This document shows positions 1-63,900 of a DNA stretch of 64,000 nt, one piece after another (the first letter of the stretch is position 1; each line of letters begins with the position of its first letter). The stretch is from Bilabrum cf. latius (taxonomy: Eukaryota), in the NCBI GenBank assembly GCA_965178125.1, contig OZ237764.1:434001-498000 (forward strand), given 5' to 3'. Made by a program: the position numbers and the translations under genes. A model generated the notes under the pieces. The model was not told the DNA's origin, made no database searches, and saw only the letters and a list, made by a program, of their open reading frames with translations.

Positions 1-864
1 ACGGATCCCACGGATGACGCAGACGACGAGTGGGGCGGCAAACCGGGGGCAGCGCCGGCAGGGAGCCCTCAGAGCGTCGTCGCTGGTGTGACGAGTGATG
101 GTGTGACGAGAGCATCTTCGGGCGCGGCAGTGGCATCGTCCTCGGCTCCGAGGTACAAGCACCTCGAAACCGACGACGGCTCCCACCTGCCTCCCATGAG
201 GCGTACTAAGCATGTGCCTGACATTGAGCCCGCCGGCAGTTCTCTTCAATCGAAATCGGGCAGGGGGCGTGGATCCAAGAGAGGGAAGAGGAGTCCCATG
301 GCAAGCAGCAGGAGCAAGGGGGGAGAACGAACAACCGCTGCCAAAAGCACAAGCACAAGCAGAAGCCCAACATCGAGGTCGAGTCCAAGCCAACAAGAGC
401 ACAGTGAAACCTCAGTAGACCCTCGGCAGATGCACGTGCATAAGGCAAAGTGGACGGACGGTGGGCTGGCTAGCGTTAGCCGCACTGGTGTGACGAGTGC
501 GCGACTGAACATGCGGCTAGGTGGCGATGGTGAAGACAAAGACGATGAGTCAGGCTCGCCAGCCAAGACCTAGCGCGGTGGCAGTGCCGAGGCTCGTGGG
601 GCTCGCGGGGTCGGCGTTCCTCCCGGATCCATGGGTAGTCCAGGCGCGGGGCGGCTTGTTTCACGCGGAAGCATAGGCAGGGGTTCGTCCGTTTTGCGCG
701 CGTCGAGAGGCGCGCGGGGCACAGGGCATGGTCTGTCGGGGGTGCGCACTGGCAGCGTGCATGGTCCAGGGCCAGGGCCAGGGCCAGGGCCAGGGTCTGG
801 CAGTCGGATCGGCGATGCCATCGCAAAGGCGGTCGAGGAAGGCGCACTGGGGTTCAATGGGTGA
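1..864 (+). CDS. 3' part of a low-complexity (S/G/R-rich) hypothetical protein; 5' end outside window
   Basis: Frame 1 is open from base 1. ORFs 88..573 and 631..864 are in frame, separated only by TAG 571-573. Ends TGA 862-864. Confidence 0.6.
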
Positions 865-1153
865 TGCGATGCATGCCGGCAAGAAAATCGGAGCTCTGAT
901 GCCTCAAGCGCTATGTAGGCCGAGCCAAGGCTACGACGCTGGGAGTGTGGCTGGGGGTCGGGAAGGAACCGGGATGAGCTGCGTTGCTTGTCGAGTGTGT
1001 TTGCGCTTCGGATGGGTATGCGCAACCGTTCGGGCAGGACAGACCTCCCTGAGGGCAAGTCAGACGGGTGGTGCTGGTCTAGACTCTAGATTACTATTGC
1101 GTATACAAATACCTTTGGATCTACAAGCAGTACAAGTATGCCATGCCACGGGA

Positions 1154-3218: not shown

Positions 3219-4830
3219 TCAATCACTAGAGATAACCGGATTGCCAGCACTTGCTCCGGGTGAAGCGCCGCCTTCACCTTCAGCGACCGTGGAAGTCACT
3301 GCCGTAGCCTCCGGCCTTGCTGCAGCAGGCGGTGCTCCTCCGCCACCACCAGATTCGCCTGGTCCAGGGACTTCCCACTGCGGCTGCGCCTGGCCACTGG
3401 TGGCACCTGCAGCGTTTGAGCCGGGTACCCCGTGGTACTGACCGTGCACGGTGCCGGCGCCGGCAGCGGCTGGCGCAGTGGCGGCGGGTGCGCCGTGGGC
3501 GGGTGGCGGTTGGTGTCCTGGGAGACCCTTGCTCGCTTCCCCCGCGGAGGCAAGCGGCTGTGCCTGGCCATGTGCAGGGGGCTGTGCCTGGTCATGTGCC
3601 TAGTGCTGGTACTGCGGCTGGGGCTGGTACTGCGGCTGGGGCTGCGGCTGTGCCTGCGCTGCGTATTGCTGTGGAGCGCCTGTGTAGGGGCCAGGGGGCG
3701 GTGGCTGGTGGGACGGTGGCTGCTGCTGCTGGTACTGCTGGTGTTGCTGCTGCTGGTGCTGCTGCTGCTGGTGCTGCTGCTGCGGCGGCGGTGCCCACTG
3801 GCCCTGTGGATGTCCCTGTGCTGGCGCCTGGCCTGTTGCTGGGGGTGGAGGGTGCCCCGTAGCGTATCCCGGGGACATCACCATGCCCTTGCCTGCGTCT
3901 GCCCCCGCTCCGGGGAGGGGTCCCGCCCCCGGCATGGGGTCCATTCCCGGGTGCACCCCGGGGGTGCCTGGGGGAGCCATAGATGCCGCGCCAGGGGCTG
4001 CCCCTGGGATGGCACCGCCCTGCGTGGCAGCGGCCTGGGTTGCAACCGGTGGAGGGGGGAAGAGAGGCACGTCTGGCAGCCTCCTTACCACCCCCGTGGC
4101 CATGAATGCCTCGATCCATGCGTCCAAATCGCCCTCTGATGGGAGGCAAATTTCCCACGCGAGTCCGGCTGGACGCCTCAGCACCACAGAGTATGGCGAG
4201 CTGAGCTGCGGGTTGACGAGCCACGAGGACATCCCGTCTCGAGGGGCGAGCTTGAGGCCACGCTAAAGGGAGCAGTCATCGAGCAGGAACGCGCCTTTTG
4301 GCTCGGATTGGGTGTGCGTAGCCTGCGAAAACGAACTATTCAAGCGTAGTACTGGACCATCATTCATGCTGGCACTGCAAAATGCATTAGGTAGCGATCA
4401 TTTGAAGGAATGCAGGGCCGAAGCTGCTGGGCCTCACGTAATACAACAGAATGCTCCCCCTCTGAACCAAGAATCGCCTCTGGAAATTTGCCCCAGCCAC
4501 ATATTTGTTGACGTATCCATATGCAGCGGGTTTTCTATAGTCGGAATCGAACCCTTCGAGAAGTGGTCTGGTGAGGACCACATTTGGGTGTGTTTGCGGC
4601 GCCGGAGCCGGAGCCGCTTGGCGGGGCTCAGACTCAGTAGCTGTAGCACTGGTGGCGTCTGCAACGCTTCCGGCAGCAGTACCTAAATCTGATGAACTCC
4701 CTGCATGCTACAAATGCTGTGGGGTTGGGGATGAGGTCGCCGGAATGCTAACAGATCTAAACTCTGGTGGACTCTACATTCCAGCAGCACCTTCTCCCTG
4801 ACTTGAAGCATGTGCAGCAGGGCTATCCAT
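3219..4830 (-). CDS. PH-domain protein with Q/P-rich tail; one intron (4323..4437)
   Basis: Spliced product AYGYVNKYVAGANFQRRFLVQRGSILLYY|ATHTQSEPKGAFLLDDCSL[TAG]...EICLPSEGDLDAWIEAF fits a PH fold. TAGs at 4776, about 4713, 4265 and 3602. Ends TGA 3221-3219. Start is ATG 4830 or upstream ATG 4965 (uncertain). Confidence 0.75.
4323..4437 (-). other. Spliceosomal intron (115 nt)
   Basis: GTGAGG...TTTTCGCAG; removal restores the PH-domain frame. Confidence 0.8.
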
Positions 4831-8539: not shown

Positions 8540-11500
8540 TCATCTCTCTATCCTCCCCTCTTTCCCACCATTGTCGATTTGAAGGCCTGATCTTGACCTT
8601 GAGTGGCTTGCCTCCGCCAGCAGCCGTAGCACGCGCGGCAGGAAACGTCTCCGCAGCTTGGTCCTCCGTAGCTGGGAGGTAGGGGTGGCTAAACCCGTTC
8701 TGGAGCTGAACGCGCGCGTGGTCAAATACAGCATCCGAGGCATCTCACACGGCAGCAGCCCCGCCTCTTCCGCCGCCTTCCGCATCAATCTCATCGCATG
8801 CTACTGCACGTGGCTGTGCCTGCACAGCGCCCTAAGGTCGAGCTGAATGTCCTGTGTTGCCCTCTCGTCAGCACCAAAGAAGTACGCGGCCTCGTGGTCG
8901 ACGCTCACGCACGCCGCCATGCCCCACGCAGGCTCCTTGGCCACGTGTGTCCCGAGCAACCCACGGTTCCCCTTGAGGATATAGCCGTGGTCTGACAGGC
9001 GCTCGCCCCTTAGATTCAACAAGTACACGCTCTTGCACAGCTATGATGCGTGGCATAGCACGGCTTCCACCTCCTCGCCGACGCAGTAGAGCCTCCTGCC
9101 ATCAGGGGCCCTTGCAGCGCACGCGATGTCAGGGCGATGGTCCGGCTCGCGCACTGCCGCACTGCGCGATGAATCCCCGTCATAGCTGCTGTCAAGTGCA
9201 TTCGCGCCTGACGCATGCGTGGTCGTCACATCCGCCGCTTCATACACGCTGAGGATGTCGCCGAGCACCTCCACCCGCTGGCGAGGCCGTAGCAGCAGAC
9301 CGTCTGTGGAGGGGCACGTGATGCGCACGTCAGGCGCAACAGCTTTGGACCTTTTCGTGGCTTTCATTTTCTCTGCTCCATCCAATGGTGACTTATTCTG
9401 CTTCTCGGACCCTATTACGGGCCCCTTCGTGTTGCTAGTTCCAGCGAGCGCAACAACCACGATGCCACACCTGTCGTAGATCTATGGGCCAGGCATGGAC
9501 TGTGCTCCCATGGGAGTTCGATTACTCGGATCGTCTCCTTCCGTCCCGGTTTCCTAATCGATGCAGCCAGATAGGTCCACGTTGGAGCCTCGACCAAACG
9601 CGTGTGACGAGTACACCCCCTGGCCACGGCCCTCGGTGGCCGCCGAGCCTGTGGCGCACGAGGCGTCGTCGTCGTCCAACCCACGGGTTGTTCTCGAATC
9701 CCCGTACATGCAGCGCCCCACCATCTCCATAGCAGGGTGTACCCCTGGCACCTTGGCGTCACGAACCGGATTCGTACTGCTACTGGGCTCTAGTCTAGCC
9801 TTTGCACCTGTGCCGCTACGTTGTGCTGCCTTGGCTGCCACGGCACGCCGAAGCGATCTGGGCTGCAATATGCACAGCTCTCCAACGACTGCCTGCAAGG
9901 GACTACCAGCAGGAGCATAGCCACTGGAAACAGTCGGGGGGCGGCCTCGCCTCATCGATGATATTAGGGCCTGGGCGCACCGTGGTGCCACTGTGGCGTT
10001 TGTGCCGCCCAGCCTGAACGTGCCGATTCCACATGCCTGCTAGTGGCTTGCTTTTCCCTACTCTTCGCCATCCAACTTCCGTGGAAGAGCCTTCTATACC
10101 TTTTCTGTCTGCTACTTGCTATTTTCATCGTTTTCACCGCGCTGAGATTCCTTAGTAGCCGGTGCATCGGACCCTCGGTCGGGGAGGGGTAACCGGGCCG
10201 AGACTTCCACTGGGAGCACACCCAGCTGCAGACCCGGCACGCCGGACAGTGTCACGGAATACTTGTGGGGATCCAGCTTCCCCTTGAATTGACCCGCGAT
10301 CATCCGAATACCCCTGGAAATGATCTTTTTCGATTTGCGCAAGGATCCGCTGCTTGAGCTGAAAGAAGAGGATCCGTCTTCTCGGCTGCTATGGCTATTG
10401 TCTTCTTCTCTGAGAACCTGCGGCATCGATACCGCTACAAACCCGTATTCAGGAGCCGTGATACCCTGCACCATGGGCACGCACATGGACAGCTCAACTG
10501 TCTCGCGCACCGCTGGATTCACGCTCAGGGTGCGGCAATGGCTGCCCATGACAAGGATAAACCGGAATGCGCTGGATCCGATCACCCTCTGCAGGCCCCT
10601 GAACACGAGCACATCGCCCCACGAGTCCTGCCTGAGGTACCCAGGGTGCCCCTTGCTCCTGTACTCCTTCTGTTTCTGCTGCACCGCAAGCTGGTATGCC
10701 ATTCGGTAGGGCAAGGACCAGGACCGCTGGATCCTCTGGAGGTGCAGCGACACTGCCTGCAGCATCCTGCTGGATGCCGTGAGGAATGTAGGCTTCAGGT
10801 CGTGGATGGCAGCTGCCAGCTGGTCAAATCTGTTCGGGGGTACAAACCCGATGGACATGCCCAGTCTCAGCGCCAGGAGCACCATCGCCCTCTCGCCCTC
10901 GTACGCGAGCGGCAGGTACGAGCAATGAACGTCTTGCGAGCGCAACAGGCCGCCAAGTGGGTGTGCCCTCAGTCGGAGCGCCATCGCACACAAACTGCCC
11001 TACGTGTGGTCGATCCGTCTCACGCCGTCATCCTGAGTCCATTCGAACATGACGCTGGCAGGGGCCTCTGGGCTGTCTGGTGCCCTATGCCGGAGGGGGT
11101 ACGCCCTGCCCGCCGCGACCACGAACGAGTAGTCTCTCAGCTCCACACCGGCTTCATGCGCCAAGATCTGCTCGTCGTATCCAAGAGGCTGCGTCTGGAT
11201 GACCAGCTTGATGCCGGGGCAGTGCCCACTCGCGATCGCCTCGATGATCACAGGCACCCAGGACCTGTCGCACACGATGGCACCAAGGTTGCACAAATCC
11301 AGCACCTCGGTCAGCAAAGCGGACGAAGGTGCGTGCAGTGCCACAGACACGAGCTCAAAGCACCAGCATGCGGCGTCCGTGATCACCCACTGGGGGCAAT
11401 TCGGAGCCAGAATTCCCACCTCTGTTCCTGGTCGCAGACGGCCTAGGTGCACGAGCCCCGACCCGAAAAATGACGCCTTCGCCTGCAGCTCGCTGTAGCT

Positions 11501-14500
11501 CAGCCAGTCGAAGCCACCGCTCGTCACACTAAGGCTGGCGTCCGACGGGTCGATTCCGGGTGCAGCCCCCGTCGGGTTTCCTAAGGCGTCTCTGTACCCA
11601 AAGAGGGCGGCACCCTGCATCAGTAGATCGTAGGCCGTCTCTGGGACGGGCATTACCGTGGCAGTGCACCCTGTTTGGGCCGTAGTACTGAGAGCCTCCC
11701 TCGCGGTCTGAAGTCCTGCTGGTGCCAGCTGCCTTGGGACTGCCTGTGCCACCATAGAAGCGCTCGGTCCATGTCCGACTTGGATGCGCACTGGCATCAG
11801 CGATCGAACACGACCGTAAATACCTGCGCGTGATGCAGCATCCAAGCTGCCTCCACTGTCGAACCCACACGCGCTTCCACTTGATAGTTGTCCAAACAGC
11901 CAGTGCCCGGCATGCGCTGCATTAGAGGGGACCGCCACGGGCCTGCCATCCCCGACCCGCCTCCACACATCACTCGTCGTCAGTGGCCGAAAATACCTCC
12001 CACTCCCGTGCACATCCCGGCGCATGCCTCTGCTGTGGGGAGAGACGTACAGCTGTACGGGCACAGGGAGCTGGCCCCTGCCAACGCTGAACAGAGACCG
12101 CCACAGGCAGGCCCACGCCCTCGGTGGCTCGCACGAGCGCCACGCGCACCAGGCCGATGTCCCCATGACACAGACGATCACTGCCACGGCGCAAATAAAC
12201 TATAGTGCATGAATCCAGCTCATTGAATGGCACAGAAACTCTTCCAAGCTGGCTTCGAGACCATCCACATCCTCGATGTCAACACTGGCATCAGCATCCG
12301 GACGACCGACCACGGAATCACCTTCGTTTTCGTGCAACCTCCCGATACCGGTCCAGTTCCGCAGCTAATTGACGTCATCCTTATCATCTTGGTGTTGGTT
12401 GAGCACAGGAGACCCAAGCCCGATTCTACGAGCGGCATACTCCAACACACTCTGCAGCGTGCAGCTCTGCATGCCCCTGGCCAAGCCGCAGGCCATGGTG
12501 TCCGACGCAAGGTGGACAATACCACCACCATGCGATGCACCTGCATCCTGCGCGCTGCAGGAGGCCAGTGGGACGAGAGCTCCGAGGCCGACGACCAGCA
12601 CGGCAGCGACCAGCAAGGCAGAGCACAGGATCGAGGGCAGCACCATCGACGAGCCGTGCCTGCCCTTGCCAGTGCCGTACTGATGGAGGGCAGCAGAACT
12701 CAGCGGGGCAGGAAGCAGGTTCTCTTCCTTCTGTGCGCTCAGTACCTCTTGCAATGCGATGATTTGCTCCAAAACGCGGTCGGGGTCGGGCAGTTGCACC
12801 CGTCCGTCTACATCCCTGCGATCGAGTGTTCGAGCTCTTACTCCAATCGCATCCTGCCCGCTCGTCACACTCAATACAACGGCACTTCCCGGGTTGCCTT
12901 GCAATCCCTGGGAACTTGCACCATCGCGTGAAGGCCTCGGATGCGTCGGTGGGAGCGTGTTTTGTTGGCTTGACATCCGTGTGGAGCACCCGCTCCTGGA
13001 CTCTAGAGCCAGAGCATCCTTCGACCTTGAGAGCACAACTCCTCCATTACGCACAGAATGCGGGTGCGACGAGATGGATGCTTGCCTCTGTCCTGCTCCA
13101 ACGGAGGTAAACGCTCGCGCGGCACCGATGGCGGTGAGCGTGTGCCTCACTCGTGTCCTCCACCCAATGGCTGGCTGGTAGTCTGCATGCGTTCCACTGT
13201 CGCTTCCTTGCTCATCGTTCAAACCTCGGCTGGTGCTAAATCTCCCCAATGGCGCCCCTTCGTCAACACGATGGGCGCTGCTTCCACGCGCCGTGGCAGG
13301 GTCCTGCAGCCGAGTCAGCTGACCCATCGAGACCAAGCCCCCGCTCAGCGAGCCCCACCCTCCGCTCGCGGCCCGCTTCAGCGAGGTCTCCACGACCGTC
13401 CTCAGCTGCCTCGCCGCAGGAGGTGAATCTAGCTTGCCCATAGCGACCAGGGGTGGAGGCAGCTACTGGTCCCCTCCTTCGCTTGCTCCTCGTTCGGAGT
13501 AGGCTGGCAACGCTGTTCCGGCCTCGGTTCCGGAGTGGCTCTAAGAACGCTTGGTTCGCGGCTGCAGCAAGGCGGATGATCCAGCCAGAGCATGAGGCAC
13601 TCCTGCAACATGCATGCTACCGTCTCTTGCTGATTCCTGGTCGTTCGCCGCAATACCGTCGCTGCTACCTTCCCTGCTGTGGCCTAGTGCCAGCGGAGTG
13701 CCATTGAATCCATCGCCAGCCCCGCCTGCGATGTCGTCAGCATCCGTGTCACCATCGCCCGCTGAATCAATCATGTCCATGCCAGACACGTCGTCGCCTT
13801 CAGCGCTGCCGTCGGATTGCTTGGAAAGGCCATCGCCGCCCCGACTTCGAGATCCGGCGGCAGCCCAGGGCGAGGAGGTGTCGGCCGCATGGCCGCGCAA
13901 AGACAGGCTCCGCAGCATATCCGGACTCGGAGCCGAAAGGCGCCGCCGACGCGTTCCAAACATCTTCTTGCGAGGGGAAGTGCTGCCCCTACCTGCTGGG
14001 CTAAGACGGCCTGCTGCGATTCGGAGCTCGCGCTGGACGGCACCGGACCGACTTGAGTGCAGCTCTTCGATTCGACTATCCCGCGGCTCGTTCGGAGGTG
14101 GAGCAGCGCCGGACGGAGAAGCCGTGCGAGGCCGCCAGCTAGCAGATGAAGACGCAGCGTTCAATTTCCACAGTGACGCCTCGTTTATTTCATCGATGCC
14201 TTGCATGCCAGACCGGAGAAGACCTCGCCACGAAGTCTGGGGAGGAGCGTCTGCAAGCCAAGGCGTCGCGTTGATGCGGGTTAGATCCGATGGAACCTGC
14301 TGCAACTGCTGCTGTATGAAACGATGGCGGAGCATGGGCGACTGCTGCAAGCTCGGCTTGATCGCAGGCGATTGCTCATGCAGCCGTTGCTGCATAGAGG
14401 CCGAGTGTGAACCTTGCCTATCGTCGTGATCTCCACCAGTCAGTTCATCTGCATCCCATGCCACGTCAGTGTGTTGTCGCCGAATCAGCACCTCGATGGC

Positions 14501-17500
14501 GAAATGGTCTGACAGGAACTCATAGGGGCGCTTACGATGGCTGTTGCCGGTGCCTGACAGGAACGCCGAAGAAGAGCTCGACGGACTGCCTGAACTGCTT
14601 TTGGTGTGCTTCCCCCCTCCTCTATGCTATGGGCGATCGAGGCCCGAAACAGCCGCGGCGACCTTCCCAGAGCCGCTCCACTTCTACTGGGCCGCCTTTG
14701 CATGGCTCCGGTGATCCACCCGGAACTCGACCACCCTCGTCTCTTCCACGATTGGCAGCAGCGACGAGGCGGCTCCCTGGCACCACCACACGATGTCCAG
14801 ACGCATGGGATACTTGTGCTTGAGGGCGTACCGCATGTCCTGTGGAAACTGCAGGCGTGGAGGCCGGGTGCTCACATGGCGCCCGAATCGTAGTTTGAGC
14901 AGGTCTGCAATGCCGTACGCAGCAGCTCCGGCCTGAGCCCCGGCCGGGGCTAGTGCCCTGACGAGGTCTCTGTACTCATCTGACTCGCCCACCCCGTCAG
15001 CAGCGGTGTACAGCGCCAATCCGCTGCTCTCCGATATGTCGCTCGCGATTGCATCTACGTTGAAATCGCCCGTCAGCATCCACGGATGCGCCTTGCCGTG
15101 CGTTTTCCTGCGAATGAAACGGACCAGCTCGGCAACCTGCATCGACCTGACGTCAGTGTACGAGCTGCCTTTGCCTGCAGACCGAGTATGAGTCGCCTGC
15201 AGATGGACGTTGAACACATCCACGCACGTGCCCTGAGCCAGCTGTACCCTGGCGAAGATCACCCCTTTGGCTGCCCCCGCATCGAGCGCCACCCCGGCAG
15301 AAAATGTGAAGCTGTCCGACTCCACGATGGGATGCTTGGAGGCGATCAGCAGTCCAGAGTCCGTGATGTGCCCTTTGAGCAGGTTGGGCATGGGAGACCG
15401 CACGAAGTGGCTGTAGCCTCCCTTCACCCGCAGCAGCTTCATGAGTCTCTCCTGGTTGCAAATAGATGGCATGAACGGAGACCGGAAGATCTCCTGCAGC
15501 GCAAGCACGTCATAGATGCCTGTGGTAGGCATGCGTCGGCGGCTTCTCAGCGTGCTCAGCTGGCCGCACATACTACGAAGTCCACGGGACATGGCTGTCC
15601 ATCCGCTAGTCGCTCCTTTAGCCTTGCTTCTCTTCCTGCTGATGGAGTGACTGGCCCGCACTGAGTCCTTGGGTTCAGCGGCCACTGGCGTGCCGTCTCC
15701 CGCTTGCATGCCCTATGGATTCGCTGCGGCCCCTCTAGGAACTGCGTCTCGCTCCGATGGTACAGGTGAGGGCCCAGGATACCTGCCCCGAGGCTCGTTC
15801 GATGCATTGGCCCCAGCGATATCGCTGCCACCAGACAGGCCCGGCAATCCAGGGCCCGCCCTTGGTGTGCTGCCATCACTCTCGAAGCCTCCCTCTGAAG
15901 ACCCGTCACCGTCCGAGCCTACACCAGAGAAGAGGCCAACTCCATCTGGGTCCGAGTCGTAGGACACTCCTTCGCTGCCCACACGCGAATCGACTCCCGC
16001 GTGCGCCCGCCATTCCTAGTCCATGCGATCCGCCAGCTCATCCGGCTCGGCAAGCCGCAGCTTGTCCTCTGCGCTCCTCTGCCTCATCATCATCAGAGAT
16101 GGCGTCTCCGAAGCCTGACTCTGCCCGCGATCACCGTTTCCAGGGTAGGTTTCTGCACCGAGCTGCTGCAGATCAGCGGCATCAGCAGAGGCAGCAGCAG
16201 AGGCAGCAGCAGAGGCAGCAGCAGAGGCAGCAGCAGAGGCAGCAGCAGAGGCAGAGGCTGCTCGGAGCTCCTCTCTCTCGTCGTCAGCAAGCTCGTCATC
16301 ACCGTCATCATTGCCATCTTGCTGGATCCAACCAGTGCACCGGTTAACGCCCTGACGGCCCTAACCGGAAACACCACCGTCTCTGCCACCAACATACGTC
16401 GCCGTGCCAGGAGTACTCGCCCCACTCCTCGCACCCGCACCTGCACGTGCACCTGCGCCTCCCCCCGATTGCAGCTGCCCTGTGCCAGCCTACTGTTCCC
16501 CCAACGGGCTATCCATAGAACCTAACTCCCTAGGCCTAGTGCCGTGTGCCTTGTGTCTCACTATTCTTCGCACGAAGTCTCTGAGCCTCTGCGTCCCGTA
16601 TTGCCCGTGGCCCGCCACGAAGAGCTCGACGCCTGCTGCCAGCACGTTGAGGTTGTATGACAGTATTCGAAACTCGTCTTGCTCCTGCTCCTGCCCCTGC
16701 TCCTGTTCCTCCTCCTGCTCCTGGTGGTCAGCTAAGTCTCGCTACCGACTCTCTTCAACCACAACCTCGGAAACATGCTATATATGGTCTTGGTCTGGTG
16801 CACTCGCGTGAGTTGTACCAGGTGCACTGGATTGAGTAGATGTGACCCCATTGCGCCCTTTCTATCCGGTGCCGTGTGTACCATTGTCAGATATCCTGTG
16901 TGGTTGGGTGTCACCACCACCACCGCAGTTGTCTCTAGTCTATGCCCCGCTACTGGCCTGCCTACCTGGTGAATCCACGCCTGCATCCATCGCTGCATCC
17001 GCCGTTCCATCGCTCACGTGGGCGGCCACACCATCCACTTTGCCGTGGGCCTTGTCCCGCGAGGCATCATCATCGTCCCCCGATCGGAGCCCCGCCAAGC
17101 CATCCTCTAGCCTCCTGGCCAGCCCAGACCCGTCCTGCCCGAAACTATGGCGCCTCCCTGCGCCCGATTCTTTGCCTAAATCGAGCAGGTCCATCGTGCG
17201 GGCCCTCCCACGCCTCGAGGGTGATGACCCGTCTGCCCCGTCCGCACTCGTCACACCAAAATCACCCAGGAACCGACCGGGACCGCCGCCACGCTGGTTC
17301 TGCAGGCTGCTGGCGATGATATTCTGCTTGGTCCGGAGCCGCTGCAGGCGCCGAAACAGAGCAACTATACCGCGCACTGCAGTGCGGTGCGACAGCCCGA
17401 ACCGGGCGAACTCGCGCTCCTGCCATAGGTTCACGAACGTTCCCTGTGACTCGCTGCTTGAGGCGGTGGCAGCCGCCGGTGCTGTTGCTGGGCCTTGCTG

Positions 17501-18220: not shown

Positions 18221-18288
18221 TGCTGCGCGATAACCAAGTCAGCTTGTTGCGTTGTGACGTGACGAAACGATTTGCCGGATGGATTCAG

Positions 18289-35465: not shown

Positions 35466-36125
35466 TGTGGTTTCTGATACTTTAATACCTACGCTTACTC
35501 TATCAAGCACGCTGTCAGCTACAGGCGGTCCTAATCTGGTAACTTGCTCTCAGAGTAGTTCCTAGTTGCGATCTTTGCCTGACAGCTAGATACGAAGTTA
35601 TTGAGCCACCCGAGACGATATTCCGTTCGCTTGCTTAATCAACGTGGGTATTGCCGAGATGATCTAGCCACACCAAGCTTCAGGGGCAAAACAATCAGGC
35701 TGCGGCTCTTCCTATCTGCGATGCTCAGCAAGTTGAGACTTTCCGCTTAGATCTGTGCATTTGGCCAAGCAGAAGGGATCAAGTGCAGTTTGAATACATG
35801 CTTTATCGGTAAGAGTCCTCAAGAATGATGCAATGCTCACTTTCTAGGGCTACGCGGTATGAAACGGAATTGTCCAGTCGATGGAATCCATCGGATCAGT
35901 TGCAACCGCCGGCGCAAGAAAAGGTTGGTTGCAACCGGTCGATCGGCGAGAGGGGGACTTTGCGGCCGACTGCGTGTATTGAACGAAATGATAAGACCCA
36001 CTGCAGCATGTTGAATCTCCAAAACTCGTTTTTTGTAGGCAATTTTCATCTCGACCTCATTCCGAGTCGACAAGCTCAAGCGCTGCCCCACACCACTCAC
36101 GCACCGGCCGTCGACCTCGCGTGTG

Positions 36126-50123: not shown

Positions 50124-53100
50124 ATGGTGAGTTGGACGCCAAATAATTGGCGTAAATCCGGGGTTTTTGGTGCCTTGCAAGCATCGATCCACGTTGTTTT
50201 GGATAACAGGCACGTTTGCTCTGCCGATGGCGGCCGGGGCAGATAGCTGCAGGCTTATGCTTTTCACACACCTCCTTTGTAACGGTTCAAGAGGCGCACG
50301 GGCCTATGGTCGCCATTCGGACAGCATTCAATTGTGGGCACGTCAAGCGAACGCCTGTCAATGCTGTTGCTCGTTTTAGGCGACCTATTGATTAATGCCA
50401 GACCAAGTTGCTCGTGCTGTATCTGGCTCTGTATGTGTTCGCAGTCTCTCGATCTAAAGATGAATCAGGAGATGCACTTGACCACGGACCGTGTGAAGAG
50501 CTGCGACTTCCATCCGACTGAGCCTTGGGTGCTGCTGGGCCTGTACACGGGCCATGCTGTGATTTATAATTTCGAGACAAAGAAAGAAATCAAGCGATTC
50601 GAAGCTACGGATGCCCCCGTCCGATGCGCCCGATTCATCGCGCGGCAGCAGTGGATCGTCGTTGCGAGCGATGACCTCTTCATCCGAGCGTACAACTACA
50701 ACACGCAGGAGAGAGTTGCCATGTTCGAAGCCCACCAGGATTTCATCCGATATTTGGAACCGCACCCTACCTTGCCGTTCCTGATTTCCACCTCGGACGA
50801 CATGACGGCCAAGCTGTGGGACTTTTCCAAGCGGTGGAAGCAGGTGCGGGTCTTCGAGGGGCACGGCCACTACGTCATGATGGCCAGGGTCAACCCGAAG
50901 GATTCAAACACATTTGCGACCGCCTCTTTGGACGGTACCATCAAGGTGTGGTCCCTGAATGCCGACGAGGCCAACTACACACTGTCGGGGCACGAGAGCG
51001 GCGTGAACGCTCTGGATTTCTACCCCGGGGGCGACAAGCCCTACCTCATCTCTGGCTCGGACGACCAGACCGTCAAGATCTGGGACTACCAGACTCGAAG
51101 CCAGGTCACCACAATCTCGGGGCACTCTCAGAACGTGACTGCCGTGCGGTTCCACCCAAGGCTGCCTGTGTTCATCTCCGGCTCCGAGGACGGCAACGTC
51201 AGGATCTGCCACTCGGCCACTTACAAGGTGGTGCACCAGATCGACTACTCGATGGACAGGTGCTGGACCGTGGATGCCGCGATGGGGAGCAACAAGGTTG
51301 CGATCGGTTACGACACCGGGTTCGTGGTGATTAAGCTGGGGTCGGAGATGCCCGTGACGAGCTTGGACCAGAGAACGGGCAAGCTGGTGCTCGCGCAAGG
51401 GAACACGATCCAGGTCGGCACATTGAGGCAGCCGGGTGCCGGTGCTGCCGCGGGGGGTGCCGCAAGCGGTGCTGGTGGCGAAGACGACGACGATGCGGCC
51501 GTGGAAGACGGCACCAAGGTCAACCTGAACCTCAGGGAGCTAGGAAGCGTGGAGGCATACCCCAACCACCTGAACCATAACTCGAACGGGACGTTCCTCG
51601 CCGTAGTGGGCGACAAGGAGTACGTGATCTACACTGCGTCTCGTCTCAGATCCAAGAGCTTTGGGCAGTGCCGGGGGTTTGCATGGTCCAGCAAGGCCTC
51701 GACGGATTTCTGCGTGCTGGAGGGGAGGGGCGTGCAGGTGTTCCGAAACTTCGAGAAGGGCAGGGTGATCGCTGTGCCGGCGGGAACCGACCGCGTCTTT
51801 GGAGGCGCGCTGGTGGGCGCGGCTTCGCCATCGGGCGTGCAGCTGTACGACTGGGAGGCAGACATGTTCGTGCATCAGTTTGAGGTGGCTGACATCAGGG
51901 GTGTGCATTGGTCGGACGACGGGCAGCACATGGCCATCACCACAGGGCAGGGCACTTTCATCCTTAAGTATGACAGCGACGCTGTGGTCGCGGCGCAGCA
52001 TCTCACCGGTGTAGAGGCCGAGGAGGTGAAGCAGAACGGAGTGGAATCTGCGTTCGAGCTTGTCACTGAGCTCCCGAACAAAGCCTCCACCGCTTCCTGG
52101 GTGGGAGAATGCTTCCTGTTTGTGGACGACGATGGGAAGCTGTCCTACTACATCGGAGGGCAGGTGGTGACCGTGTCCCACCTCAAGAGCTAGCAGTTCC
52201 TACTGGGGTATTACCCGCAGGAAAGCAAGTGCTACGTCATGGACAGGGACGGGGGCGTGTTTGCCTACAGCCTGTCTCTGGATTTCGTCAACTACCAGAC
52301 GGCGGTGATGAAGAAGGACTTTGTCGCGGCCAACTCGATCCTGCCTCGAGTGCCCCGAAGGCTGCACACCGAGCTGGCCAAGTTTCTGGACAGCCAGGGC
52401 TACAAGGAGGAGGCCCTCGGTGTGACGAGGGACCTGGACCACAAGTTCGACCTGGCGGTGCAGCTGGGCAGGCTGGACGAGGCCCTGGACATCGCCAGGA
52501 GCATGCAGGCGGAGAGCGACGAGACAGAGGTGCAGGCGAGGTGGAAGCAGCTCACCGACCTCGCGTTGTCAAAGAGCGACCTCCAGCTGGCCGAGAGGTG
52601 TGCCCTGGCAGGGGAGGACTACGCGTGTGCCCTGATGATATACACCTCTACTGGGTCCCGGCTGGGTCTGCTGCAGCTGGCAGGGATGGCGAGGAGGGCG
52701 GGCCGCATCAACGTCGCGTTCATGTGCCTCTTCCTTCTCCAGCGCACCGAGGACTGCGTGCAGCTGCTGCTGGACGCGGGGAGGATTCCGGAGGCCGCTT
52801 TCTTCGCGCGGTCTTACGCCCCTTCCATGGTGTCTGACACAGTAGCTGCTTGGAAGGGCATGCTGACTGGCACGGCGGACAGAGCTGCCCAGGCCCTTGC
52901 TGACCCAGCCGAGTACCCCAACTTGTTCGAGGACTTTGAGACGTCCACGAGGGCAGAGGGCGTCTTTGTTGCCAACAGGGACCGGGGCATGCCCACGGCC
53001 GCCGACTATGCCACGGCTGCGTCGCAGCTGGACCTGGATTTGATCGAGCTGGTCAAGCAGGCGTAGGCGGCTGGGCAGCTGGGCGCGCTGTCTGCCGGTG

Positions 53101-53801
53101 CTGCTGGTGGTGCTGCAAGTGCTGATGGGGCGGTGGAGGGAGCTCAAGGCGGAGCGGCAGGCCCCGACGATGGGCCGCAGGAGGACGATGGTGTGACGAG
53201 TGAGGATGCTACTCCGCAGTCCCCTTCCGGCGGGGGACAACAGGCGGCATCAATTCAGGAGGATGACAAGGAGGCGACAGAAGCCGAGCCTGCCCCGTCC
53301 TCCCCTGCCCCTGCCCCTGCCCCTGCCCCTGCCCCGGCAGCCGTTCCTGTCGCATCACCGGCCCCGGCCCCGGCTCAGGAGCCAGCACCGGCCTCACCGT
53401 CGCAGCCCTCGGGATCCGGTTCCGCAATCGCCGCGGCGCCGCTTTCCCCGTCCTCCGCGCAGCCCCCTGTTCCGCCGGTGACGGCCGTTCCTGGCAGTCC
53501 GCCCGCCTCACCCGGCGCGGGGCAGCCTTCCATGCATCCTTCCAACGGGTCGCCGCAGGGAGGGGCAGGAGCCTCGTCTGCGAGCACGCCCGCAAAGTCG
53601 CCTCCCGGGCCATCGGCGGGCGCCGGATCCGGAGCCGCTGCCACCCCCGAGGAGGTCGCTGATGGTGAGGGCGATGCGGCGCCGGGTAGCGATAGCGGCG
53701 GGGCGGCGGCACCAGGGGAATCCACCGCGGATTAGACAGCTGCTGAGATTGAAAAGGAGCTGGCCGAGGCTGGTTTGGGGCTCGATGACGACTGGGAGTG
53801 A
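50124..53801 (+). CDS. COPB2: Coatomer subunit beta-prime (Sec27); probable ATG-only first coding exon, intron 50127..50444
   Basis: DRVKSCDFHPTEPW, FEAHQDFIR, FEGHGHYVM, NPKDSNTFATASLD, GGDKPYLISGSDD, RIPEAAFFARSY, LADPAEYPNLF. TAGs at 52191, 53064, 53733. Acidic tail LDDDWE-TGA 53799-53801. Confidence 0.96.
50127..50444 (+). other. Probable spliceosomal intron (318 nt)
   Basis: ATG|GTGAGT...GTTCGCAG|TCT gives M-SLDLK. The acceptor is well supported; the donor choice is less certain. Confidence 0.6.
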
Positions 53802-56930: not shown

Positions 56931-57930
56931 ATGTCTTCTTTGTAGCTGACTCTTAAGTCGGCCGCATAGGGTGGATCAATAGGAATACACCGCGGTGGGG
57001 GCGCTCAACTTCCTGGCGAACCTGCACATGACTATGCGCACCGCAGGTTTGTGCAAGGGTGCGCTTCTTTATTGTCCAAACTCGCTCCCAGCGTGGCTTC
57101 TAGTGCCTCTGTCTCCGGATTGGCATCTTTGCTCCCTGATGAAAGTGCTGAGATTGAGCTGGGCCGGCGAGCGGCCGAATCAGTTGATGCGCTGTGGGGC
57201 TCATGCATCCGAAACGGTGGAGACAGACTTTTTCTGCCGATAATTGAAGTGAGGTATTATCACTTGGAATAATATATCGCATGGTAGGTCATAGCGTGCT
57301 TTTATTTGCGATACGATCGCGCGTACATGGTCAAGCAGCTGCGCCTGCATACCCAGCCGTTGCAAGTCACCGCCCCTTTTGAGTGGCTCGCTGGGCTGCT
57401 GCGGATCGCTTCGTATTGACCCCTGACTTTTGCGAGCAATATTCGATCCATGTTTTGCCCCTATACCGCAGTTGGGACGAGCATTGAGCGAGCAGTGCGG
57501 GTTGCACCAGACGGCCAGACGCTCCTGCTTTGACCGAGCAGCGCTGCAGCCGGAGCAGTTGCGCGAGCTGGCCGCCGCGGGGCCGGGCCCCAGGCACGGA
57601 GCCAGGCTTGCATTGCATTGCGCTGCCGTTGCAGCCGATGCCCGCGCCGCTCTCAGGGTGCATCGCACTGCAGACCCCTCGCTGCAGCGGGCGAGCGCGA
57701 GGACGGAGCTGGCAGGGTGCCTGCGCAGCTGCTCGAGGGCCGCGTGGCTGCTCGCTTCCGCTGGGGGGGAGCCAAGGGACAGCGGCGCCTGGGCCGTCAG
57801 GGAGGTTGCAACCGCCGGAGCGCTGCTCGCGGGAGCCCTTTGCGATTCCGAGTCGTGGCCGGCAAGCGCCACCCACGGCCCCGGGCTGTGGGCGGCCGAG
57901 GCGGCCGCCGCGTCCGCGACCGCTGCCGCT

Positions 57931-57965
<35 letters not shown>

Positions 57966-60900: not shown

Positions 60901-63900
60901 GATCGAGCCCCGATGGTGCTCGCCTCCGCAACGGCCCTCTGCTGGCGCGCCTCTGCCCGCGCGGACGCCCTGCTCCGATCGATGGATGCCTCAATTGCGG
61001 AGGGTCGTGCTAGGGGTACCAAGATCGCAGCCATGGCCGTCGCTGCGGACGGAGCGTCGGCCGTGCTGGCGGCCTCGAGCGTGTCCGGGCACCTGACGGG
61101 CTGGCGGCGGCAGTGCCGGGCGGGACTGGTCCTGGCGCGTGAGCTGCTTTCTGCCGGGGCACACAGGGCCGCGGTCTCAGCGGCGAGGCGGGCCTTGGAG
61201 GCTGCGGAACTAGGTCGCGGCGCCGCGGCGGAGGAGGCCGTGGGGCAGCTGGCCAGGGAGCGGGCGACGGGCGCGAAGGGGGCTGACGAGTGCTGGCAGG
61301 AGGCGGCCGCGCTGGCGCTGCAGTGCACTGCAGGCGGCATGTGGACGTCGGACGAGGGTCCGCTGCGGGCCGGTCCCACGGAGAGGCACCTTCACGAACG
61401 TTCGCAGAGCGAGGGCGGCCAGGGCACCAAGCCGGGCCACGGGCCCACTGGCAGGGACTCGCGGGCCGTGGGCCCCGGCCAGGTGGCTTCGCAGGAGGCC
61501 GCGTGCCTGCACTTTGACGCGGTTGCAACCTATCTCAGGGCACAGATGGCCTCGGCCGCAGCGGCGCAGGCGCAGAGGGACAGCCTCCGCGAGCCCCCGC
61601 CGTCGGACCCGGTCGCAAGGGCTGCGCACACGCGCGCCAAGAGGCGACTGGAGCTGGCGGCGGCTGGGGCGGGCCGCGTCAGGCGCGGGGCCTCCGCCAT
61701 TGGGAGGCAGAGGAGGGCCGATTCCGAGGACGATTCCGAGGACGAGGAGGGGCAGGAGGGACGAGCGGGTGCTGGCGCTGATGGTGTGACGAGTGAGGAG
61801 TCGGGGGACCCCTGGGGCCCCGCTGCCTCTGGACCTGACGAGGCCTCCCTCATGGCCTTGCGGGCGTGGGCGGGGGGGGACGCAGGCTGCCTTGCTCTGG
61901 TGCACTTGTGTGCCCTGAGGTACGACCGGTCCCCAGCTCAACGGCTAGATCGGCTGGAGGAGGCCTTGCGATGCGCCGACACGGCGGCCGAGCTTGCCGC
62001 CCGCGTGCGGCAGTGCAGTGCAGCTTTGGTGCTGGACGCAGCGGGGGACGTGGACGTGTCACGCCTGCAGCGGGGATCGAACCTGGGCGGGACGCAGGGG
62101 TCTGAACCTGAACCGCTCCTGTTGGCCCGGTGGGGCGGCGGCGCTGCATTCCTGGTCGCAAGACCCGGAGCCGCAGGATCATCATCCTCATCGTCATCCT
62201 CATCGTCATCGCTCGGGAGCTCTGCAGGAGAGAGAGAAGCAATCGATGGGTCGGCGAGCTCCGCCTGGTGCTCCCCTCGACGGGCGGGGGCCTGGGTGTG
62301 GTGCAGGGAGGGACGGGCCAGTGTGACGAGTGGCGGACAGCGGGGAAGGCAGGACCAAGGTGAGGGAGCCGGGTCGGGTGGCAGCGGAACCTCGTCGGGC
62401 GCCGCGCAATCGATCGGAGGCGGTGGACTTGAATCGGTCGCCCGCGGGCAGGCAGAGCTCGCCGGGTCTGGACCGTCGTGCCCGGTTGCAACCACGTTCC
62501 TCATGCCCGAGCACGGCAGCAGCAGGAACACCACCCACGGGAAGGCAGAGAATGCACCCGGAGGCCACCGCGAACGTTCGCCAGGGTTCGCCCAGCGGCA
62601 CGTGGTGTGCGTGCTGCGGGGAGGCAGGAGCAGGCAGACCGTGTTCGTGGCAGCCGACGGGGCCGGATACCCGGAGCCGAAAACATCCCAGCAGCCCGTG
62701 GTGCTGTCTAGCCCCCTGCCCCTTTGCATGGTATGGGGAGCCGTGGCGATGGAGGCCTGGAGGTGCGGCGAGGCAGGGTTGGCACGGCGCGCGGCGATGC
62801 GGGCGGCGGCGCCCTTCCTTCTGGTGGGTCCCCCGCGACCTTCACTCTCCGCAGTAACCGCCGGGGCGCAGCTCGCGCTGTCGGCGGGGCTGGTGCAGCG
62901 CACTGCGGCGCAGATCGCCAGCTAGCTGCCCTGGTGGCTGATCGTGCTGTCTGCCACGGCGGAGGGCGGGGCCGCCATCGGCTCCGGGATCGGCGAGGCC
63001 GGCCTGGGTCTACCGGGCGGGGGGACAGCGGGCGCAGCGTGGGAGTCGCAGTCGGGCGCGAGGCATCGCCTGGAGGCGGAAGAGGACGTCAAGACCAAAT
63101 GGAGGTGGGACGCCTGGGACTCTGACCGGGCTGGCTGGGGAACAAGAGGGCCGGCGGTGCACCCGCAGCTGGGGTACCACTCCGGCGCCCTGGCGCAGCC
63201 CATTAATCGCACTCGTCACACCGTCGATCTCACCCGGGCCCAGGGACCCTACGTCGACCCGCCCATCGGCGGGTACCCCGGGCCTGCCCCGGCGGAGAGT
63301 GATGGTCGTCATGGTCAGTCGTCCCCCACGGACCGCAGGCGTGTGGGTCTGCCCGCCCACGCCCCGACGAACCACAGGGGATGGGCCGCCAGCGCGCGCA
63401 GGCTCCATCGGTGGTACACGGGGTCGTGGTCCCATGCCCAGCGGCCTGTGCGAGCAGACGGGGGTCCCGCCTCTGCGGCGGAGGCCTCCCGACTCGCTGG
63501 AATGTCGCCCGCGGCGCGATTCGCCGCCGCCGCCTGTCGGCGGTGCGCCACGGCGGCTGCCGCGCTCGAGGCGGCGGCTCTGGGCCTCGCACCCACCGCT
63601 GGGGAACAAGCCCTCGCCGCGCTGGTCACTGCAGCCACGCCGCTCCTCGCGATCGGGTCCTAGGAGAGTGTGACGAGTGCGCTGCTGCAGCCGTGCCTGC
63701 GGGCGTGGGCGGCGGTGGGCTCCCTGGCCCGGGACACGCTGCAGTTCAGTGCACGCGGGAGGTCGCAGGTGCTGCGCGCTATGGTCGCACGGCTTGGTCT
63801 GCTGGTGGCGCACGCGAGCGCTGGGTAGGGCCTGTCTGGCGCGTCTGGGGGCGGGGCGGGTGCAGCTCTCGCGCGTTGGCAGAGAGAGGTTGCGACCGGC

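What the first reader, a model, noticed from the sequence alone, without database searches (positions are those of the whole stretch)
86..63677. Highly iterated DNA word GTGTGACGAG embedded in coding sequence on both strands
Seen: at least 25 exact copies plus near matches (20982, 22250, 43086, about 45503, about 51353). A rough base-composition estimate (GC about 64%, judged by eye) expects about 0.1-0.2. It is translated in four different frames (G/S-VTS, x-SSH, TRHT, LVTP), so it is not only a peptide motif. It has no TIR, TSD or shared flanks, so it is not a transposon. It clusters at 20-23.6 kb (9 copies), 37.6-37.9 kb and 61.8-63.7 kb, and I found none in the Clu-TPR gene, RPS6 or the transposon. 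Inference: a genome-wide cis-signal analogous to bacterial Chi, DUS or HIP1, possibly a protein-binding, methylation, recombination, replication or self-marking site. It contains a bZIP-type TGACG half-site.
Basis: partly seen in the sequence, partly recalled or inferred. Interest (0 to 1): 0.85.

Follow-up and report, generated by a model that had tools for sequence, protein, structure and literature searches.

The report
Exact 10-base word saturating protist genes
An exact ten-letter DNA word sits inside the protein-coding genes of an unidentified high-GC protist hundreds of times more often than chance allows, on both strands and always spelled identically. This resembles the hyper-abundant "genome words" of some bacteria.

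Summary
GTGTGACGAG occurs 25 times in the window against 0.10 expected. A codon shuffle gives 0.08 and a dicodon Markov model gives 0.41, with a maximum of 3 in 500 runs.

There is no halo of decayed copies. I found 6 one-mismatch variants against about 4.6 expected, and 47 two-mismatch variants against about 61 expected.

The organism reads TAG as a sense codon. Read that way, all 25 copies lie in long ORFs:
- 17 copies are sense, all in one frame: GGT GTG ACG AGT, giving G/S-V-T-S/R.
- 8 copies are antisense, spread over three frames.
- No copy lies in a frame that would need Cys or a stop.

13 of 15 [GS]VTS peptides are encoded by the word. It is therefore a nucleotide word, not a peptide motif. 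It is also not a splice signal, a mobile element or an assembly artefact.

Two metagenome contigs from a TAG-sense relative carry the same word in the same frames. The window holds further exact 10-mers of the same kind, for example GGTTGCAACC, which encodes 7 of 9 V-A-T tripeptides.

My best reading is a double-stranded-DNA recognition word kept exact by selection or by a conversion drive. Its function is not shown, and genome-wide abundance was not testable.

The parts
86..95 (+). word copy, sense, frame G-V-T-S; first unit of a 15-nt tandem pair
101..110 (+). word copy, sense, frame G-V-T-R; second unit of the tandem pair
488..497 (+). word copy, sense, frame G-V-T-S
   Evidence: codon-usage score tied
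9602..9611 (+). word copy, antisense to ORF 8540-18238(-), read as S-S-H
11520..11529 (-). word copy, sense, S-V-T-S, just N-terminal of the AMP-binding domain of ORF 8540-18238(-)
12861..12870 (-). word copy, sense, S-V-T-S, in ORF 8540-18238(-)
17247..17256 (-). word copy, sense, G-V-T-S, in ORF 8540-18238(-)
20051..20060 (+). word copy, sense, G-V-T-S, in G/S-rich ORF 18340-23784(+)
20126..20135 (+). word copy, sense, G-V-T-S, same ORF
20553..20562 (-). word copy, antisense in ORF 18340-23784(+), read as S-S-H
20940..20949 (-). word copy, antisense, read as S-S-H; a one-mismatch copy lies 42 nt away at 20982
   Evidence: codon-usage score tied
21125..21134 (+). word copy, sense, G-V-T-S, ORF 18340-23784(+)
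   Evidence: codon-usage score prefers another frame
21395..21404 (-). word copy, antisense, read as T-R-H-T
21537..21546 (-). word copy, antisense, read as S-S-H
22086..22095 (-). word copy, antisense, read as S-S-H
23552..23561 (+). word copy, sense, G-V-T-S, near the C-terminus of ORF 18340-23784(+)
37611..37620 (-). word copy, sense, G-V-T-S, in the TPT transporter gene 37460-39232(-)
37875..37884 (-). word copy, sense, S-V-T-S, TPT gene; forms an inverted pair with 37921 (36 nt between)
37921..37930 (+). word copy, antisense in the TPT gene, read as L-V-T
52420..52429 (+). word copy, sense, G-V-T-R, in an ungapped conserved block of coatomer beta-prime; no insertion relative to 13 homologues
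53191..53200 (+). word copy, sense, G-V-T-S, in the disordered tail of coatomer beta-prime
61784..61793 (+). word copy, sense, G-V-T-S, in Ala-rich ORF 57427-63999(+)
62321..62330 (+). word copy, sense, S-V-T-S, same ORF
63212..63221 (-). word copy, antisense in ORF 57427-63999(+), read as T-R-H-T
63668..63677 (+). word copy, sense, S-V-T-S, same ORF, directly after an in-frame TAG
4038..4047 (.). second word GGTTGCAACC (palindrome), read as V-A-T
35927..35936 (.). second word GGTTGCAACC, outside the long ORFs, next to a 9-of-10 copy at 35899
37547..37556 (.). second word GGTTGCAACC, TPT gene, V-A-T
38015..38024 (.). second word GGTTGCAACC, TPT gene, V-A-T
47078..47087 (.). second word GGTTGCAACC inside the AA_permease domain of SLC12; uses T- and A-ending codons in a gene with 89% GC3
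57804..57813 (.). second word GGTTGCAACC, ORF 57427-63999(+), V-A-T
61521..61530 (.). second word GGTTGCAACC, same ORF, V-A-T
62484..62493 (.). second word GGTTGCAACC, same ORF, V-A-T
19626..19635 (.). third word CGAACGTTCG (palindrome), read as E-R-S
40993..41002 (.). third word CGAACGTTCG, read as R-T-F
61395..61404 (.). third word CGAACGTTCG, read as E-R-S
62571..62580 (.). third word CGAACGTTCG, read as E-R-S

Best explanation
GTGTGACGAG is a recognition word in double-stranded DNA. Its soft extension is (T)G-GTGTGACGAG-TG. It is one of a small set of exact 10-bp words in this lineage. A sequence-specific factor, most likely a DNA-binding protein, is inferred to read it.

How copies arise and persist:
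- New copies arise mainly by point substitution at near-matching sites inside genes, not by insertion of a mobile element.
- A force acting on the nucleotide sequence itself then keeps them letter-perfect. That force could be selection for site density in gene bodies, or a short-patch repair or gene-conversion bias towards the word.
- Protein-coding constraint only filters where a copy can sit. Frames that would give a stop or Cys are empty, and the benign G-V-T-S frame is the fullest.

Shown: the enrichment, the exactness, the nucleotide-level nature, the frame filter, the presence on both strands, and the presence in a relative.

Inferred: that a factor binds the word, and what the binding does.
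For: Enrichment survives every null model:
- 25 observed against 0.10 from dinucleotide shuffles
- 0.08 from a codon shuffle
- 0.41, maximum 3 of 500, from a dicodon Markov model
- for the 9-mer, 25 observed against 1.16 from an order-4 Markov model

It is a nucleotide-level word:
- 13 of 15 [GS]VTS peptides use the same codons, although GGT and AGT make up only 19% and 10% of Gly and Ser codons.
- 17 sense copies lie in the V-T-[SR] frame, and there are 25 V-T-[SR] tripeptides in all.
- 5 of 8 S-S-H tripeptides are its reverse complement.

Both strands are enriched. Over the codon-usage null, sense copies are about 790-fold enriched and the three antisense frames 160-490 fold. The sense frame that needs Cys has 0 copies, and so does the frame that contains TGA.

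There is no halo of decayed copies. One-mismatch variants number 6 against about 4.6 expected, and two-mismatch variants 47 against about 61.

One copy did not arise by insertion. The copy at 52420 lies in an ungapped conserved block of coatomer beta-prime, and its Gly (a T-ending codon) is found in 0 of 13 homologues.

A relative has the same word. Contigs L006 and L007 have TAG-sense ORFs, the same extended word, the G-V-T-S frame in sense and S-S-H in antisense, and also carry GGTTGCAACC.

The window holds a set of such words:
- GGTTGCAACC: all 7 copies that lie in ORFs are in one frame, and it encodes 7 of 9 V-A-T tripeptides.
- CGAACGTTCG: 4 copies.
- GGTTCCGCAG: 7 copies.
Against: - No binding, modification or phenotype was measured.
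- Only 64 kb of this genome plus 10.6 kb of a relative were seen. The relative's contigs were found by searching for the word itself.
- Sense copies outnumber antisense 17 to 8, where the codon-usage null predicts about 44% sense. L006 and L007 together give 12 to 2. This also fits an RNA-level role.
- No copy lies in about 10 kb outside the ORFs. A purely DNA-level site need not avoid such sequence, although that DNA has lower GC.
- Tandem 15-nt arrays at 86-110 in the window and in L006 show that some copies spread by local duplication.
- Calling the sequence coding depends on reading TAG as sense. A codon-usage score agrees with the assigned frame for 22 of 25 copies.
Confidence: 0.45

Rival explanations
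1. It is an RNA-level cis-element. The word is read in the mRNA by an RNA-binding protein or a small RNA, for export, stability, localisation or translation in an intron-poor organism with very long transcripts. Antisense copies would be by-products or would serve antisense transcripts.
For: Sense copies are in excess: 17 of 25 in the window, 7 of 7 in L006 and 5 of 7 in L007. All copies lie in ORFs and none in about 10 kb outside them. Only one spliced joint was seen in 20 kb.
Against: Antisense copies are themselves 160-490 fold above the codon-usage null. Two of the companion words are perfect palindromes, which suits a dimeric DNA binder. No run is on record as RNA and strand information is lacking.
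Confidence: 0.2
2. It is the product of a repair or methylation-linked drive, like the short-patch repair bias proposed for some bacterial words. A sequence-specific enzyme corrects near-matches towards the word, so the word accumulates wherever the protein tolerates it, without benefit to the cell.
For: Tolerant sites look saturated. 7 of 9 V-A-T tripeptides are the palindromic word, and the other 2 are one-mismatch variants of it. The first word occupies 17 of 25 V-T-[SR] sites. Near-variants are at or below chance. The words use T- and A-ending codons against a GC3 of 84-89% in SLC12 and coatomer.
Against: No such system is known to me in a eukaryote (recalled). No methylation data could be read. 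Large populations can reach the same saturation by weak selection. Two synonymous one-mismatch copies persist at 22250 and 20982.
Confidence: 0.17
3. It is a tiny insertional or minisatellite unit. A 15-nt in-frame unit (D-G-V-T-S) is inserted or duplicated in disordered protein regions, and single copies are seeds or remnants of arrays.
For: There are tandem 15-nt arrays at 86-110 in the window, and arrays of 3 and 4 units in L006. Most copies lie in lineage-specific low-complexity segments, for example 9 copies in the G/S-rich ORF 18340-23784.
Against: The copy at 52420 sits in an ungapped conserved block. GGTTGCAACC sits inside the AA_permease domain of SLC12. Conservation ends at positions -2 and +12, so single copies do not carry the 15-nt unit. 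Antisense copies occur in three frames.
Confidence: 0.1
4. It is a short peptide motif (G/S-V-T-S) selected at the protein level, for example a modification or docking site in disordered regions.
For: All 17 sense copies share one frame, and many lie in disordered segments.
Against: 13 of 15 [GS]VTS peptides carry the word, and 10 of them use the identical 12 nt. Independent codon choice would give that 12-mer a probability of about 0.004 per site. 8 antisense copies encode unrelated peptides. Companion words behave the same way with unrelated peptides.
Confidence: 0.03
5. It is due to chance, composition, or an assembly or adapter artefact.
For: High GC and low-complexity coding sequence inflate some k-mers.
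Against: All null models give 0.41 or less against 25 observed. Logan contigs of four runs from three studies cover the word sites in 4201-24200 with no differences listed there. Independent metagenome contigs carry the word.
Confidence: 0.02

Closest known systems
HIP1, the highly iterated octamer palindrome of cyanobacteria (knowledge recalled, not read here)
   Same: It is an exact short word, hugely over-represented, mostly inside coding sequence, filtered by reading frame, and kept beyond what codon usage explains. Its function is still debated, and methyltransferases are suspected.
   Different: HIP1 is a single 8-bp palindrome in bacteria. Here the words are 10 bp, the main one is not a palindrome, there are several, and the host is a eukaryote with introns and a coatomer gene. 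The HIP1 octamer itself is not enriched here, with 4 copies.
DNA uptake sequences of Neisseria and Pasteurellaceae (DUS/USS; recalled)
   Same: They are non-palindromic words of 9-12 nt on both strands. They are common inside genes, in tolerated frames and in less conserved protein parts. They accumulate by a molecular drive rather than by benefit of each copy.
   Different: They depend on natural transformation machinery, which is unknown in eukaryotes. By recall, one-mismatch variants of USS are also abundant, whereas here they are at chance level.
Chi sites of enteric bacteria (recalled)
   Same: An over-represented exact word read by a DNA-processing enzyme. It is frequent in genes.
   Different: Chi is an octamer and is oriented with replication. 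No replication-linked polarity is visible here, and orientation follows genes only weakly (17 to 8).
Minisatellite core or recombination-hotspot motifs of eukaryotes, including CRE-like hotspot sites bound by bZIP factors in fission yeast (recalled)
   Same: A 10-15 nt core shared by dispersed short tandem arrays, such as the 15-nt arrays here and in L006. The word contains a TGACG half-site.
   Different: Those motifs are degenerate, mostly non-coding, not saturating, and are eroded rather than accumulated. Here the full 10-mer is invariant, not just the half-site.
Palindromic elements inserted in frame into genes (Rickettsia palindromic elements, mitochondrial GC clusters; recalled)
   Same: Selfish nucleotide sequences that are tolerated inside protein-coding genes and translated.
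   Different: Those are elements of 30-150 bp with recognisable bodies. Here only 10-13 nt are shared, and at least one copy is not an insertion.

Membership tests
HIP1-type iterated palindrome | The word is the HIP1 octamer | tested here: not met
   That octamer occurs 4 times among 283 palindromic 8-mers and is not enriched.
HIP1-type iterated palindrome | The word is a perfect palindrome | tested here: not met
   GTGTGACGAG is not self-complementary. The companion words GGTTGCAACC and CGAACGTTCG are.
HIP1-type iterated palindrome | Hyper-abundance inside coding sequence beyond codon usage | tested here: met
   25 observed against 0.08 (codon shuffle) and 0.41 (dicodon model).
DNA uptake sequence (DUS/USS) | Preferential uptake by a competence system | not testable with these tools
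   No genome is held and no experiment is possible.
DNA uptake sequence (DUS/USS) | Bacterial host | tested here: not met
   There is a spliced GT..AG intron. Coatomer, SLC12 and RPS6 genes have eukaryotic best hits.
Transposon, MITE or SINE remnant | Shared flanks, terminal inverted repeats or target-site duplication | tested here: not met
   Information content is at most 0.57 bit per column outside positions -2 to +12 across the 25 oriented copies. Only one close inverted pair exists, at 37875/37921.
Splice signal or intron element | Transcripts are joined at or near the word | tested here: not met
   The only clean spliced joint in 4201-24200 is the intron 4322-4436. The other 12 joints listed have short sides or unknown letters between, and none has the ends of an intron. 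Contigs run through the 14 word sites there. The RNA nature of the runs is only a guess.
Peptide repeat or short linear motif | Synonymous codons vary among copies and copies lie on one strand only | tested here: not met
   13 of 15 [GS]VTS peptides carry the word, 10 of them as the identical 12-mer. 8 of 25 copies are antisense.
bZIP / CRE binding site | A TGACG half-site within a palindromic or near-palindromic full site | tested here: inconclusive
   The half-site is present but the second half is absent. The conserved unit is the 10-mer plus TG. Binding is not testable.
Known RNA family | Match to an Rfam model or a tRNA | tested here: not met
   0 Rfam matches at gathering threshold and 0 tRNAs in the window.

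The most novel reading that the evidence does not exclude
A eukaryotic nuclear genome carries a lexicon of exact 10-bp words, including GTGTGACGAG, GGTTGCAACC and CGAACGTTCG. A sequence-directed conversion or repair drive, or selection on each site, propagates them and keeps them letter-perfect. They come to occupy nearly every position that the encoded proteins can tolerate. This would be a eukaryotic counterpart of bacterial HIP1 or uptake sequences, conserved across species of a deep lineage that uses a variant genetic code.
Probability: 0.3. Interest if true: 0.9.

Novelty: new variant of a known kind. Interest (0 to 1): 0.78.

Why it matters
Hyper-abundant exact words such as HIP1, uptake sequences and Chi are, to my knowledge, a prokaryotic phenomenon. 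Each has led to a specific piece of DNA-handling machinery. A set of such words inside the genes of a eukaryote would point to an unknown sequence-specific system acting on gene bodies, whether by binding, repair bias, modification or recombination.

The words override codon bias and shape which tripeptides exist. They would also give a direct handle for finding that system: use the word as bait, or compare word-creating with word-destroying changes. The same organism reads TAG as an amino acid, which makes the lineage interesting in itself.

Word searches of the open literature for the 10-mers and their reverse complements returned only primers and unrelated constructs among the listed titles and abstracts. 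I opened none of these papers.

Tried and rejected
- Whole genome: none is held.
- Splice-signal idea: rejected. The only clean spliced joint in 4201-24200 is the intron 4322-4436, with an ordinary GT..AG.
- RNA evidence: no RNA holder is listed. X5-X7 are only guessed to be RNA, so expression, strand and transcript ends could not be read.
- Loose ends of contigs at 17257, 22100 and 23565, next to word copies, hint at look-alike sites elsewhere in the genome. I do not count this as evidence.
- Codon periodicity by GC3 alone labelled much of the window 'non-coding'. That was misleading: G/S/A-rich coding sequence hides GC3 periodicity, and TAG read-through shows long ORFs.
- The absolute-position mod-3 regularity of copies is explained by copies sharing ORFs and was dropped.
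Most are an unrelated low-GC family with a 16-nt subrepeat, or local tandem repeats. Only L006 and L007 show the same extended word. L110 has a 15-nt array but many stops in all frames and was set aside.
- Viral contig scan: 11 loci, all local repeats. None has the second word.
- Rfam and tRNA scans: nothing.
- General palindrome excess: none. There are 283 palindromic 8-mers against 282 simulated, and 92 palindromic 10-mers against 78.
- Literature searches for the words and for the genetic code: nothing bearing on the words. I saw search listings and abstract starts only and opened no paper. Supplements were not consulted.
- In one search the frame of the first ORF was mis-set by one base. 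This was corrected.
- The 10-of-10 identity island in the L007 internal duplication may be an alignment anchor, so I treat it as weak.


Full report
**The observation.** GTGTGACGAG occurs 25 times in the 64-kb window, 14 times on the + strand and 11 on the - strand. Dinucleotide-preserving shuffles give 0.10 copies, with a largest value of 2 in 100. Allowing one mismatch adds only 6 sites; 4.74 sites with at most one mismatch are expected by chance, of which 0.10 are exact. Allowing two mismatches brings the total to 78 against 65.4 expected, and 12 of 100 shuffles reach 78. The exact word is therefore about 250 times over-represented, while its one- and two-mismatch neighbours are at or slightly below chance. 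After masking the TPR repeat gene, it is the most frequent 10-mer that is not a CAG-type microsatellite. Aligning the 25 oriented copies shows a soft extension. G at position -1 occurs in 18 of 25 copies, T at +10 in 18 of 25, and G at +11 in 22 of 25. Nothing is shared further out, where no column exceeds 0.57 bit. GC is 62.4%.

**Gene context and the genetic code.** The window is eukaryotic. It encodes:
- coatomer beta-prime, an SLC12 transporter, a GH78-type rhamnosidase and a TPR array
- a TPT transporter, a MINDY deubiquitinase, a PX protein and a beta-eliminating lyase
- RPS6
- one cleanly spliced 115-nt GT..AG intron

The best coatomer hits are only 49-50% identical. RPS6 has one unnamed relative at 91% identity and then nothing above 60%. 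The lineage is therefore deep and poorly sampled.

The stop codons that bound the long standard-code ORFs are TAG in 22 of 25 cases checked. TAG also falls inside conserved parts of coatomer and SLC12. Long frames hold 97 in-frame TAG codons against 2 TAA and 11 TGA in 17,563 codons. In the TPR repeats, 3 of 5 repeat-embedded TAGs sit where the other repeats have Gln. Reading TAG as sense gives giant ORFs of 3232, 1814 and at least 2191 codons. These end in TGA in 11 of 14 cases and in TAA in 3.

**Where the word sits.** All 25 copies lie in these ORFs, and none lies in the roughly 10 kb outside them.
- Seventeen copies are on the sense strand. All 17 are in one frame, nGT GTG ACG AGn, which gives G/S-V-T-S/R.
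- Eight copies are antisense, read as S-S-H (5), T-R-H-T (2) and L-V-T (1).
- A codon-usage log-odds score, trained on homology-supported genes with the word masked, picks the same frame for 22 of 25 copies. Two of the other three are near ties, and at 21125 it prefers another frame.

Measured against a codon-usage null, the sense frame is about 790-fold enriched and the antisense frames 160-490 fold. The sense frame that would read Cys-Asp-Glu has 0 copies although its null expectation is similar. The frame that contains TGA also has 0. The same holds for the companion words: every frame needing a Cys codon is empty.

**It is a nucleotide word, not a peptide.**
- Of 15 [GS]VTS peptides in the ORFs examined (which left out the 5'-open ORF at 1-570), 13 carry the word, 10 of them as the identical 12 nt. 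GGT and AGT are minor codons, at 19% and 10%.
- 17 sense copies lie in the V-T-[SR] frame, and there are 25 V-T-[SR] tripeptides in all. Five of the 8 S-S-H tripeptides are its reverse complement.
- The copy at 52420 lies in an ungapped, conserved block of coatomer beta-prime. Homologues there have [AQET]-[VL]-[ST]-x. The window's Gly, encoded by T-ending GGT in a gene with about 84% GC3, is found in 0 of 13 homologues. This copy arose by substitution, not insertion.

**Controls.** A codon shuffle within ORFs gives a mean of 0.08 and a maximum of 3 in 300. A first-order Markov chain on codons was trained on the real ORFs with the word copies left in. It gives 0.41 and a maximum of 3 in 500. 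An order-4 Markov expectation for the 9-mer is 1.16 against 25 observed.

**What it is not.**
- Not a splice signal. Logan contigs of four runs from three studies were laid on 4201-24200. They run through the 14 word sites there without joints or listed differences. The only clean spliced joint is the ordinary intron at 4322-4436. Whether X5-X7 are RNA is only a guess.
- Not an assembly artefact, for the same reason and because independent metagenome contigs carry the word.
- Not a mobile element, because there are no shared flanks.
- Not a known RNA: there are 0 Rfam hits and 0 tRNAs.

**Relatives.** Most hits belong to an unrelated low-GC family with a 16-nt subrepeat, or to local tandem repeats. 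Two contigs, L006 and L007, are different.
- They carry the same extended word (TGGTGTGACGAGTG).
- L006 has 15-nt tandem arrays encoding (G-V-T-S-D)n, like 86-110 in the window. It also has an 800-codon frame with 4 TAG and no TGA or TAA, and all 7 of its copies are in the G-V-T-S frame.
- L007 has 5 sense copies (G/S-V-T-S) and 2 antisense copies (S-S-H) in TAG-containing ORFs.
- Both contigs also contain GGTTGCAACC, 1 and 2 copies respectively.
- In the internal duplication of L007, two word sites are kept in the near-identical part. One further word site appears as a 10-of-10 identity island in the diverged part. That island may be an alignment anchor, so I treat it as weak evidence.

A scan of viral contigs gave 11 loci of unrelated local repeats.

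**A set of words.** Screening the window for dispersed over-represented words found others:
- GGTTGCAACC has 8 sites. The 7 that lie in ORFs are all read as V-A-T. It encodes 7 of the 9 V-A-T tripeptides, and the other 2 are one-mismatch variants. One copy lies inside the AA_permease domain of SLC12. There it uses T- and A-ending codons in a gene whose third positions are 5% A and 6% T.
- CGAACGTTCG has 4 sites, 3 of them read as E-R-S.
- GGTTCCGCAG has 7 sites, often within about 25 nt of CGCGGCGCC.

Palindromes as a class are not enriched, so these are specific words.

**How it most likely works.** The pattern has five parts:
- exact words with no halo of decayed copies
- comparable enrichment on both strands
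- empty Cys and stop frames
- near-saturation of tolerant sites against codon bias
- presence in a relative with lower GC

It is the pattern expected of a word that matters as double-stranded DNA, is generated or favoured everywhere, and is removed only where the protein cannot bear it. I therefore favour a sequence-specific DNA-level recognition word (confidence 0.45). It would be kept either by selection for site density in gene bodies or by a repair or conversion bias towards the word; I list the drive separately at 0.17. Nothing here tells those two apart.

The excess of sense copies, 17 to 8 against about 44% expected, keeps an RNA-level role alive (0.2). The milder nature of G-V-T-S compared with His- and Arg-containing antisense readings could also explain that excess. 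Local duplication of a 15-nt unit clearly happens but cannot explain the copies in conserved, ungapped positions (0.1). A peptide motif (0.03) and artefact or chance (0.02) are nearly excluded.

**Comparison with what is known.** In behaviour, the closest things are bacterial hyper-abundant words: HIP1, the uptake sequences and Chi. Their properties are recalled here, not read. The word is not a member of any of these families. The sequences differ, the host is a eukaryote, and the main word is not a palindrome. Word searches of the open literature for the four 10-mers and their complements returned only primers and unrelated constructs among the listed titles and abstracts. Two searches on the genetic code gave nothing on such words. 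I opened no paper and no supplements.

**Limits.** Only 64 kb of this genome and 10.6 kb of a relative were seen, and the relative's contigs were found through the word itself. No genome, no stranded RNA, no polymorphism data and no modification data were available.

Noticed in passing
whole window, e.g. 52191-52193, 53064-53066, 59524-59526: TAG is used as a sense codon, probably Gln. 22 of 25 ORF-bounding stops are TAG. There are 97 in-frame TAG codons in 17,563 codons. TAG replaces Gln in 3 of 5 repeat-embedded sites of the TPR array. Real ends are TGA (11 of 14) or TAA (3 of 14). A UAG-only reassignment is rare among eukaryotes.
   Followed up: partly
4038, 35927, 37547, 38015, 47078, 57804, 61521, 62484 (10 nt each): The exact palindrome GGTTGCAACC is about 355-fold over the codon-usage null. 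All 7 copies that lie in ORFs are read as V-A-T. It encodes 7 of 9 V-A-T tripeptides and is also present in L006 and L007.
   Followed up: partly
19626, 40993, 61395, 62571; also 22171-22198, 23290-23310, 41170-41208, 53418-53440, 58521-58545: The palindrome CGAACGTTCG occurs 4 times. The word GGTTCCGCAG (7 copies) repeatedly lies within 0-25 nt of CGCGGCGCC, in either relative order and orientation, as if the pair were a two-part site.
   Followed up: no
8540-18238 (-), 18340-23784 (+), 57427-63999 (+): There are giant ORFs of 3232, 1814 and at least 2191 codons, mostly low-complexity G/S/A-rich sequence. The first combines an endonuclease/exonuclease/phosphatase domain with an AMP-binding domain. 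The other two have no Pfam match.
   Followed up: partly
about 35900-37000: A tandem array of a 75-nt unit, read as a 25-residue repeat in one frame, lies outside the long ORFs.
   Followed up: no
26097-29681 (-): Within one open frame, the TPR repeat array switches to a different reading of the same 126-nt repeat about two thirds of the way along. This suggests a frameshift in the array or an assembly slip.
   Followed up: no
5500-8000: The rhamnosidase gene is the only part of 4201-24200 with many listed differences between sequencing runs. It carries none of the words. That would fit a recently acquired or fast-evolving gene.
   Followed up: no
4322-4436 (-): This is the only clean spliced joint in 20 kb: a 115-nt GT..AG intron that looks AT-richer than its surroundings when read by eye.
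   Followed up: yes
L013, L018, L023, L055, L096, L106 and many other low-GC metagenome loci: An unrelated repeat family has a 16-nt subrepeat (GTGTGACGAGTTGACC) that happens to contain the same 10-mer. It occurs in arrays and inverted pairs typical of a transposon's subterminal repeats.
   Followed up: no
L007 1-1300 and 3800-5300: An internal duplication of a gene segment. It is about 97% identical over the first 460 nt and then strongly diverged, with extra tandem units in one copy.
   Followed up: partly
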